Below, one piece after another: positions 14,609-14,765 of a stretch of 38,057 bases of DNA (position 1 is the stretch's first letter; the number at the start of each line of letters is the position of its first letter). Under the pieces are notes generated by a model. That model had not been told where the DNA came from. It ran no database searches and saw only the letters and a program-made list of their open reading frames with translations. The position numbers were made by a program, and so were the translations under genes. The stretch is from NCBI GenBank assembly GCA_018780435.1, contig JADMJS010000239.1, positions 1 through 38,057 on the forward strand, read 5' to 3'. This DNA comes from Myxococcales bacterium. GTDB lineage: Bacteria; Myxococcota_A; UBA9042; GCA-2863065.

Positions 14609-14765
14609 GGGCTCGGTCGAGATTAAGTGAGAGAGTTGACCGCGCCGCGCCCCGCCCGGCTCGGGCCAAGTCCGAAGACATACTCCCCGTATTTCGAGGA
14701 CTTGGAACGAGCCGGGCGGGGATGCGGCGCGAGGCAAACCGAACCACTTATTTTCGACCGAGCCC
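14609..14765. repeat. Copy B of the palindromic roughly 160-bp repeat (MITE or structured RNA), in inverted orientation relative to copy A.
   Basis: gggctcggtcgagattaagtg ... cacttattttcgaccgagccc are terminal inverted repeats. Internal arms cgccccgcccggctcgggccaagtcc / ggacttggaacgagccgggcggggatgcg surround the loop gaagacatactccccgtatttcgag. The copy lies in the 451-bp gap between the TIR gene and the calpain gene. Confidence 0.6.

What the first reader, a model, noticed from the sequence alone, without database searches (positions are those of the whole stretch)
14609..14765. A roughly 160-170 bp self-palindromic intergenic element is present in two copies. It has terminal inverted repeats gggctcggtcgaa...ttcgaccgagccc and a conserved GC-rich stem with a 25-nt loop.
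Copy B (14609-14765) and copy A (1497-1668) are about 85-90% identical after reverse-complementing. Each folds into a long imperfect hairpin. Copy A carries a 13-bp insertion (agagaacgtcagc) in the loop-proximal region. Size, TIRs and intergenic location fit a MITE. Conservation of a precise stem-loop could instead indicate a structured sRNA or riboregulator family. Short artefactual ORFs on both copies translate to the same peptide (RPAR[VA]KSEDILPVFRG), confirming the repeat.
Basis: seen in the sequence. Interest (0 to 1): 0.55.

Follow-up and report, generated by a model that had tools for sequence, protein, structure and literature searches.

The report
New bacterial MITE (mobile palindromic repeat)
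The two look-alike 157-163 bp hairpin-forming intergenic sequences are copies of a small non-coding "jumping" DNA element (a MITE) that is scattered through the genomes of an uncultured, probably myxobacterial, lineage; this is a new family of a well-known and ordinary kind of element.

Summary
Copy B (14609-14765) and copy A (1497-1659, opposite orientation) are 88-91% identical over ungapped blocks, and similarity stops at the element ends. B folds into a near-perfect 157-nt hairpin (-119.6 kcal/mol, z = -12.5).

It is a dispersed repeat, not a local duplication. A 20-mer from the loop found six more copies on six contigs of one MAG (CANMLD01, "Proteobacteria bacterium ZH-15may19-174"), each with unrelated flanks. 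These include a copy split by a nested second MITE. A 5'-truncated fragment lies nearby on one of these contigs.

All copies end GGGCTCGGTCG...CGACCGAGCCC and are flanked by TNA-like triplets, identical on both sides in 4 of 8 copies.

The decisive result is an empty site. Between accB and recQ the MAG has TGA-[157 bp]-TTA. The orthologous site in a related genome, from the sample that also yields the window's contigs, has a single TCA and no element.

So this is a MITE that inserts with a 3-bp TNA duplication. That signature fits IS5/PIF-Harbinger-type DDE transposases, but no autonomous partner was found.

There is no Rfam match, no conserved ORF and no significant covariation. The one oddity is a 33-nt asymmetric apical core that is invariant in every full-length copy while the arms vary by 10-25%.

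Verdict: a new member of a known kind, of low to moderate interest.

The parts
14609..14765 (+). Copy B of the MITE, 157 bp, short subfamily, near-consensus
   Evidence: nhmmer full-length hit, E = 3e-53. It is 90-94% identical to the MAG copies. Hairpin -119.6 kcal/mol, z = -12.5.
14606..14608 (.). Left flanking triplet TGA of copy B (target-site duplication, one mismatch to the right copy)
   Evidence: Flank table. The 3-bp TNA duplication is established by the empty/filled-site comparison.
14766..14768 (.). Right flanking triplet TAA of copy B
14609..14629 (+). Left terminal inverted repeat of B (GGGCTCGGTCGAGATTAAGTG). The outer 11 nt are the conserved terminus.
   Evidence: The terminal 8 nt (GGGCTCGG) are invariant at both ends of all aligned copies; the remaining three positions of the 11-mer each vary in one copy.
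14745..14765 (+). Right terminal inverted repeat of B (CACTTATTTTCGACCGAGCCC)
14667..14699 (+). Asymmetric apical core, 33 nt, invariant: CAAGTCCGAAGACATACTCCCCGTATTTCGAGG
   Evidence: Zero substitutions in 7 aligned copies and in L004, while about 35-40% of the arm columns vary. Twenty of these positions were the search bait for the MAG copies; the other 13 positions, and the A-versus-B comparison, are free of that bias.
1497..1659 (-). Copy A of the MITE, 163 bp, long subfamily, older and more diverged, opposite orientation to B
   Evidence: nhmmer full-length hit on the minus strand, E = 1.6e-43. Alignment. Hairpin z = -4.4.
1563..1574 (-). 12-nt segment (CTGACGTTCTCT in element orientation) that defines the long subfamily
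   Evidence: The same segment, at the same position, is present in MAG copy L004 (CAGAACTTCTCT).
1575..1607 (-). Invariant 33-nt apical core in copy A
1494..1496 (.). Flank CGC of copy A (decayed duplication; GCG in element orientation)
1660..1662 (.). Flank TTC of copy A (GAA in element orientation)

Best explanation
[quoted passage not shown] It is a 157-bp non-coding, almost fully palindromic DNA element; a long subfamily is about 163-170 bp.

It most likely works as follows. A DDE transposase encoded elsewhere in the genome moves it in trans. The transposase recognises the terminal inverted repeats (GGGCTCGGTCG, extending to about 21 nt as GGGCTCGGTCGWAAATAAGTG). It makes 3-nt staggered cuts at a TNA target and joins the element ends there. 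Gap repair then duplicates the TNA.

Shown here: multicopy dispersal in two related genomes, conserved termini, TNA flanks, a precise insertion relative to an orthologous empty site, truncated and nested copies, two subfamilies shared by both genomes, and exclusively intergenic locations.

Inferred: the transposase family. The 3-bp TNA duplication is the signature of IS5-family / PIF-Harbinger-type DDE enzymes.

Also inferred: when a neighbouring gene is transcribed through a copy, the very stable RNA hairpin could affect transcript 3' ends, as described for ERIC and Correia elements. The invariant 33-nt apical core suggests that something, either a transposition cofactor site or a host-level function, constrains the centre of the element.
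For: Dispersal:
- Two copies in the window have unrelated flanks.
- Six more copies lie on six different contigs of MAG CANMLD01, next to housekeeping genes (fusA, gyrBA, metH/proC/tRNA, ahcY, greA, accBC-recQ). Apart from those copies, the only other detected similarity between the window and these loci was an element-derived fragment (L002 728-806).

Termini and flanks:
- Termini are GGGCTCGGTCG...CGACCGAGCCC in every copy, with at most one substitution in an end.
- Flanking triplets are TTA/TTA, TCA/TCA, GAA/GAA and TAA/TAA in four copies, differ by one base in three copies, and are decayed in copy A. Permutation P = 0.029 for perfect matches and 0.007 for nucleotide matches.

Empty versus filled orthologous site:
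- MAG: ACGGTGCCC-TGA-[157 bp]-TTA-CGCCGTAGTGACGG.
- Logan contig SRR12964614_79960 (AccB 87% identical): ACGGTGCCC-TCA-CACCGACGTGACGG.
- After removing the element plus one triplet, the alignment across the junction is gap-free.

Other hallmarks of transposon families:
- A 5'-truncated copy (L002 728-806).
- A copy interrupted by a second MITE (L004 274-513).
- The same long/short subfamily split in both genomes.
- Short-read (Logan) contigs end inside the element arms in four cases.

Non-coding: no reading frame is open in all copies.

Literature:
- Bacterial MITEs of 100-235 bp with TIRs, direct repeats and RNA folds of -98 to -130 kcal/mol are the norm, and empty/filled-site comparison is the accepted mobility test (PMC3184786).
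- IS5 and PIF/Harbinger elements generate 3-bp target-site duplications (PMC4122938).
- IS1031-group members recognise three nucleotides as insertion site (PMC2516522).
Against: - No autonomous element with matching inverted repeats was found. There is none in the window or in the roughly 46 kb of MAG loci surveyed (L001-L006; for the longer L016 contig only the precomputed Pfam table was consulted). There is none in the JGI metagenome scan with the TIR pattern, where the single hit was a chance match. There is none in viral contigs or plasmids.
- The transposase assignment rests on the duplication length and target alone.
- Only 8 full or near-full copies were available. Four of the 8 duplications are imperfect.
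- At the verified insertion, the two MAG triplets and the empty-site triplet carry three different middle bases (G, T, C). This requires later substitutions.
- Complementarity runs along the whole element, not just the termini, and the core is invariant. A purely selfish DDE-mobilised element does not require either feature.
- No evidence of current activity was found.
Confidence: 0.85

Rival explanations
1. REPIN-like element. Two inverted REP sequences form a hairpin, and a RAYT (Y1, IS200/IS605-related) transposase spreads it as single-stranded DNA. The whole-length hairpin is the substrate.
For: Complementarity extends over the whole element, and the hairpin is very stable on either strand. 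One subfamily shows multi-base compensatory changes that restore a perfect stem (L003). All locations are extragenic.
Against: - The flanks carry a variable, copy-specific 3-bp direct duplication. The empty site has exactly one triplet. Y1 transposition does not produce this (established knowledge of IS200/IS605 and RAYT).
- At 157 bp, the element is longer than typical REPINs.
- The individual arms are not themselves REP-type short palindromes with a conserved GTAG head.
- No Y1 transposase was seen in any locus.
Confidence: 0.04
2. A family of structured small RNA or riboregulator genes, or a mobile element whose payload is such an RNA. The long stem presents the invariant 33-nt apical region as the functional part.
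For: - The apical core is invariant in all copies, including the diverged copy A. Core identity between A and B is 33/34, against 76% for the arms with gaps counted.
- Wobble-type single changes (G-U) are somewhat more frequent on the B-plus strand than A-C changes: 13 against 7 alignment columns (my count; not significant).
- Three pairs show compensatory changes.
Against: - No Rfam family reaches gathering score. Sub-threshold hits are generic hairpins such as miRNA precursors and mraW.
- Covariation is not above shuffles: 63 of 500 shuffles reach the observed number of both-sided pairs, and all such pairs come from one copy.
- No sigma-70-like promoter and no convincing terminator lies in or beside the copies.
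- Orientation relative to flanking genes is mixed.
- Twenty of the 33 core positions were the search bait for six of the copies.
- Duplication plus empty site already explain how the copies arose.
Confidence: 0.08
3. Remnants of a segmental duplication of flanking genes, or a chance palindrome pair.
For: None beyond the presence of two copies in one window.
Against: Similarity stops exactly at the element ends. Flanking genes differ at all eight sites. The hairpin z-scores and the nhmmer E-values (1e-43 to 1e-55) exclude chance.
Confidence: 0.01

Closest known systems
Bacterial MITEs with whole-length hairpins: Correia/CREE (Neisseria), ERIC (Enterobacteriaceae), Nezha (cyanobacteria), Chunjie (Geobacter)
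   Same: They are 100-235 bp, non-coding and multicopy, with terminal inverted repeats and short flanking direct repeats. They sit in intergenic regions, often at gene 3' ends. Predicted RNA folds are around -100 to -130 kcal/mol, and size variants arise from internal indels. Mobility is inferred from filled versus empty orthologous sites (PMC3184786; PMC10969869).
   Different: No sequence similarity was found in the plasmid collection, Rfam, or the viral and JGI metagenome contig scans; no database of known MITE or IS sequences was available to search. The duplication here is 3-bp TNA, not TA (Correia, ERIC) or 9 bp (Chunjie). The element is GC-rich, whereas Chunjie is A+T-rich. The host is an uncultured, probably Myxococcota, lineage. 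No partner IS has been identified, whereas Nezha is paired with ISNpu3.
IS5-family insertion sequences (IS1031/IS427-type subgroups) and eukaryotic PIF/Harbinger transposons with their Tourist-like MITEs
   Same: A 3-bp target duplication centred on T-N-A / T-W-A (PMC4122938; PMC2516522). Inverted repeats beginning with GG/GA is my own recollection of ISfinder entries and was not tested.
   Different: No transposase gene is associated with this element in any sequence examined. The link rests on the duplication alone.
REP/REPIN elements mobilised by RAYTs
   Same: Extragenic, palindromic, multicopy and hairpin-forming.
   Different: REPINs do not create target duplications. Here a 3-bp duplication and a single-triplet empty site are observed. 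Size and end sequences also differ.

Membership tests
MITE (non-autonomous DDE-transposon derivative) | Small size (roughly 50-500 bp) and no coding capacity | tested here: met
   Copies are 157-163 bp. Every reading frame has a stop in at least one copy.
MITE (non-autonomous DDE-transposon derivative) | Terminal inverted repeats conserved among copies | tested here: met
   GGGCTCGGTCG / CGACCGAGCCC at both ends of all copies, with at most one substitution in an end. This extends to about 21 nt.
MITE (non-autonomous DDE-transposon derivative) | Multiple dispersed copies with unrelated flanks | tested here: met
   Two copies in the window, six full-length (one of them interrupted) on six MAG contigs, plus one partial fragment. 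Genome-wide copy number could not be obtained.
MITE (non-autonomous DDE-transposon derivative) | Target-site duplication of fixed length | tested here: met
   3-bp TNA. Perfect in 4 of 8 copies, one mismatch in 3 of 8; P = 0.007-0.03. The empty site has one TNA where the filled site has two.
MITE (non-autonomous DDE-transposon derivative) | Presence/absence polymorphism at orthologous sites (mobility) | tested here: met
   accB-recQ intergenic region: filled in MAG contigs L016-L018, empty in L015. Only one site was tested.
MITE (non-autonomous DDE-transposon derivative) | A related autonomous IS with the same inverted repeats | tested here: inconclusive
   None was found in the window, the fetched loci, JGI metagenome contigs, viral contigs or plasmids.
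IS5 / PIF-Harbinger-mobilised element | 3-bp duplication at a TNA/TWA target | tested here: met
   Literature: PMC4122938 and PMC2516522.
IS5 / PIF-Harbinger-mobilised element | Inverted repeats matching those of an IS5-family transposase gene in the same lineage | not testable with these tools
   No access to the full MAG or source genome, or to ISfinder.
REPIN / RAYT system | No target duplication; insertion as single-stranded DNA next to a fixed tetranucleotide | tested here: not met
   A variable, copy-specific TNA duplication and a single triplet at the empty site.
REPIN / RAYT system | RAYT gene flanked by the repeats | tested here: inconclusive
   None was seen in about 38 kb of window and about 46 kb of MAG loci. 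Whole genomes were not searchable.
Curated structured RNA family (Rfam 15) | Covariance-model score at or above the gathering threshold | tested here: not met
   No hit on the element in the window or in six MAG loci. The best sub-threshold hit was mraW at 34 bits against 50.
Structured RNA (de novo) | Compensatory covariation above background | tested here: not met
   Three both-sided pairs, reached by 63 of 500 shuffles; covariation score 0.084 against 0.076 +/- 0.007. Power is low with 7 sequences.

The most novel reading that the evidence does not exclude
The element may be more than a selfish MITE. Its arms drift and are re-symmetrised; L003 has a block of five compensatory positions. Its 33-nt asymmetric apical core stays invariant across subfamilies and across two genomes whose AccB proteins are only 87% identical.

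That pattern would fit a mobile module carrying a functional apical motif. Candidates are a binding site for a host or transposition protein, or the exposed loop of a small RNA or RNase-processing signal. The host may have co-opted it at gene 3' ends. It would be an analogue of Correia or ERIC regulatory effects in a Myxococcota-like lineage, with a sequence-specific payload.
Probability: 0.12. Interest if true: 0.5.

Novelty: new member of a known kind. Interest (0 to 1): 0.27.

Why it matters
**Practical value.** The element marks a repeat family that fragments short-read assemblies of this lineage; four Logan contigs end inside it. It gives a ready marker for insertion polymorphism between related freshwater Myxococcota-like populations.

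**Biological value.** It adds a GC-rich MITE with a TNA duplication, presumably driven by an IS5-type transposase, to a phylum where such elements are little described. Its invariant apical core is a small, testable puzzle about what constrains the centre of a palindromic MITE. It does not change any general picture.

Tried and rejected
- Metagenome scan with a second core 20-mer found nothing.
- Metagenome scan with the TIR pattern GGGCTCGGTCGNAAATAAGT gave one hit in a low-GC contig. It is a chance match with no palindrome partner and no transposase.
- Viral-contig scans with the TIR and core patterns gave 0 hits.
- blastn of the consensus element, and of the 36-nt end, against 72,556 plasmids gave only short chance matches inside unrelated genes.
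- A protein search with the element's open frame, hoping for spuriously called ORFs on other copies, returned no candidates.
- Extending the window through Logan contigs failed. ORFs 115-1479 and 29324-37024 are not on record with those exact products.
- I looked for an empty site for copy B through calpain-like orthologues. The closest relatives (89% and 72% identity) lose homology at window 15413 or have too little upstream sequence.
- I considered a composite transposon, or an inversion between the two inverted window copies that bound 13 kb. Neither the outer flanks (CGC / TAA) nor the swapped flanks match better than the present pairs, so there is no support (my reading).
- Retron msr-msd, attC, a CRISPR repeat and an intrinsic terminator were considered and dropped. 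There is no adjacent RT or integrase, no matching core motifs, no array and no U-tract.

Full report
**1. The observation**

Copy B occupies window 14609-14765. Copy A occupies 1497-1659, in the opposite orientation. The repeat finder reports three ungapped blocks between them at 88%, 91% and 89% complementarity (I1-I3). Similarity stops at GGGCTCGG on one side and CCGAGCCC on the other.

B folds as a single hairpin of -119.6 kcal/mol. Shuffles give -60.1 +/- 4.8, so z = -12.5. The other strand folds almost as well (-110.5 kcal/mol). A is a poorer hairpin with z = -4.4. Compared with B, A has a 12-nt insertion beside the apex (1563-1574) and a 5-nt deletion in one arm.

The insertion is 12 nt rather than 13. 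Otherwise the description is accurate.

Both copies lie between co-directional genes. B sits between a 232-aa ORF with a weak TIR-domain match and a calpain-like peptidase gene. A sits between a 454-aa ORF and a CotH gene.

**2. It is a dispersed family**

A 20-mer from the apex (GACATACTCCCCGTATTTCG) was scanned against one genome per species (GTDB). It matched six times, all in one MAG: CANMLD01, "Proteobacteria bacterium ZH-15may19-174". The matches lie on six different contigs.

Five of the six are full-length copies of 157-159 bp. The sixth (L004) is a copy split by a 240-bp insertion that has its own inverted ends. An additional 5'-truncated fragment lies at L002 728-806.

Apart from those copies, BLAST between the window and these loci found no other similarity except the element-derived fragment at L002 728-806. 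The neighbours are ordinary chromosomal genes: fusA, gyrB-gyrA, metH/proC/tRNA, ahcY, greA and accC-accB/recQ. The window's neighbours are different again. All eight sites are intergenic, mostly within about 110 nt of a stop codon.

The 12-nt segment that distinguishes copy A is also present in MAG copy L004. Long and short subfamilies therefore exist in both genomes.

Short-read Logan contigs identical to the window end inside the arms of copy B (L007, L012, L013). A Logan contig of the MAG population ends inside the arm of its copy (L019). This is what assemblers do at repeats.

The window's source genome is not itself among the species representatives. Calpain-like homologues carry Myxococcota labels, so the lineage is probably Myxococcota. 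That is an inference.

**3. Ends, flanks and the empty site**

Every copy starts GGGCTCGGTCG and ends CGACCGAGCCC, with at most one substitution. The inverted repeat continues to about 21 nt.

The three bases outside each end, in element orientation, are:

| Copy | Left | Right |
|---|---|---|
| L001 | TTA | TTA |
| L002 | TCA | TCA |
| L005 | GAA | GAA |
| L006 | TAA | TAA |
| B | TGA | TAA |
| L003 | TAA | TCA |
| L004 | TGA | TAA |
| A | GAA | GCG |

Exhaustive permutation of the right flanks among copies gives P = 0.029 for four or more perfect pairs. It gives P = 0.007 for 19 or more of 24 matching bases.

The decisive test came from the MAG copy between accB and the convergent recQ. A search with AccB found an 87%-identical orthologue on Logan contig SRR12964614_79960 (L015). 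This is the same sequencing run that yields contigs identical to the window.

- The MAG reads ...ACGGTGCCC TGA [157-bp element] TTA CGCCGTAGTGACGGCCGAGC...
- L015 reads ...ACGGTGCCC TCA CACCGACGTGACGGCCGAGC...

After deleting the element and one triplet from the MAG sequence, the two align without a gap across the junction. Three independent assemblies of the MAG population carry the filled site.

The insertion is therefore exactly 157 + 3 bp at a TNA.

One caveat applies. The three triplets have three different middle bases, which requires substitutions after insertion. This is plausible, because these intergenic flanks differ by about 20-25% between the two genomes.

**4. What it is and how it works**

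The following features define a MITE:

- small size;
- no conserved reading frame;
- conserved terminal inverted repeats;
- a fixed-length target duplication;
- dispersal with unrelated flanks;
- truncated and nested copies;
- subfamily structure;
- a filled/empty polymorphism.

The most likely mechanism is cut-and-paste, or replicative, mobilisation in trans by a DDE transposase. The enzyme would bind the inverted repeats and make 3-nt staggered cuts at TNA.

A 3-bp duplication at TNA/TWA is characteristic of IS5-family and PIF/Harbinger transposases (PMC4122938; PMC2516522). My recollection that IS1031/IS427-type subgroups use TNA comes from ISfinder and was not checked here. I put the MITE call at 0.85. 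Given that call, I put the IS5-type assignment at about 0.55.

The partner IS was not found in any sequence I could reach.

**5. The rivals**

*REPIN/RAYT.* A REPIN/RAYT origin would explain the whole-length hairpin. It does not explain copy-specific duplications or the single-triplet empty site.

*Structured RNA.* This reading gets no positive support:

- No Rfam family reaches threshold. Sub-threshold matches are generic long hairpins.
- Only three pairs change on both sides, and all three are in L003. That number is reached by 63 of 500 shuffles.
- No promoter-like site was found.
- Orientation relative to neighbours is mixed.

Two features are nonetheless not required of a selfish DDE-mobilised element.

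First, complementarity runs along the whole length. In L003 a five-position block is changed on both arms so that two G.A mismatches become T-A pairs. L004 shares the left-arm variant, so this is a subfamily trait. Templated repair within a quasi-palindrome, or selection for the hairpin, could produce it.

Second, the asymmetric apical 33 nt (14667-14699 in B) are identical in all copies, while 35-40% of the arm columns vary. A and B differ by 24% in the arms (gaps counted) but by 1 in 34 in the core. Twenty of these positions were my search bait for the MAG copies, so only the other 13 positions and the A/B comparison are unbiased. My rough estimates are P of about 0.004 for the first and 0.03 for the second.

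Something therefore constrains the centre. It could be a cofactor site needed for transposition, or a host-level role of the transcribed hairpin. Such a role would resemble those described for ERIC and Correia elements at gene 3' ends (PMC3184786). This is the basis of the novel case, at 0.12.

**6. Comparison with known elements, and novelty**

In kind, this is the same as Correia, ERIC, Nezha and Chunjie. Those are 100-235 bp elements with TIRs, direct repeats and predicted folds of around -100 to -130 kcal/mol, and their mobility was shown by filled/empty sites.

It differs in four ways:

- sequence, with no similarity found in the plasmid collection, Rfam, or the viral and JGI metagenome scans (no database of known MITE or IS sequences could be searched);
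- the duplication (TNA rather than TA or 9 bp);
- base composition (GC-rich);
- host lineage.

It is a new member of a known kind.

**7. Verdict**

Interest is 0.27. This is a clean but ordinary mobile repeat, with one small unexplained feature: the invariant core.

Noticed in passing
L004 274-513; L010 2474-2665; L009 5376-5518: A second MITE-like element of about 240 bp is nested inside the L004 copy of the main element. Its ends are AGTGGGTCRGACAAAA...TTTTGTCYGACCCACT, flanked by GGACTG on both sides in L004. Copies 92-93% identical lie at the ends of two JGI metagenome contigs from a relative whose calpain-like gene is 89% identical to the window's. Its end (GGGTCGGACAAAAT) loosely resembles the main element's end (GGGCTCGGTCGAAAAT).
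   Followed up: partly
L002 66-142 and 534-611 (inverted); L006 887-964: A third repeat family (about 77-130 nt, GC-rich, ...CCTCCTCGCCGGGCGCTTCGCTTTGCCCGCCTCCGGGGGGCTCCGG...). In L002 an inverted pair brackets an HNH-endonuclease-like pseudogene. In L006 it lies 14 nt from the main element. Intergenic repeats therefore cluster.
   Followed up: no
window 14735-14765 and 14609-14660; L007, L012, L013, L019: Four independent short-read (Logan) contigs end inside the element's arms. This is consistent with a high-copy or palindromic repeat breaking assemblies.
   Followed up: partly
window 14984-15413 versus L009-L011: Homology between the window and its closest metagenomic relatives begins only at 15413, inside the calpain-like gene. 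The relatives have a 282-aa product preceded by uvrC. The window has a 410-aa product preceded by element B and a 13-kb CotH / beta-helix / ceramidase-like cluster, which is bounded by the two inverted element copies. The flank triplets do not support a composite transposon or an inversion.
   Followed up: partly
window 23151-29564 (-) and 22594-23196 (-): A 2137-aa protein combines SpvB, TcdB-mid, FG-GAP and RHS regions with a C-terminal GH-E HNH nuclease domain. A SUFU-like 200-aa ORF follows it. The layout resembles a polymorphic toxin with its immunity gene.
   Followed up: no
window 29324-37024 (-): A 2566-aa ORF with no Pfam match at all. It is not on record with this exact product in the contig collection.
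   Followed up: no
window 20313-20438: A run of 9-nt tandem repeats (TCGACCTCG-like, about 10 units) inside ORF 19922-21280, which has no Pfam match.
   Followed up: no
window 1777-6955: Three CotH-kinase-domain genes and a beta-helix gene are clustered directly downstream of copy A.
   Followed up: no
L005 486-569: A tRNA gene about 100 nt from the L005 copy of the element, upstream of proC and metH.
   Followed up: no
L004 574-620: Immediately after the L004 copy and its TAA flank, the sequence GAGCTCGGTCGAGTCCGAGACAGGAGTCTGTCGACTCGGAG starts with a one-mismatch copy of the element's 11-nt terminus and forms a small hairpin. It may be a solo-end remnant of another insertion.
   Followed up: no
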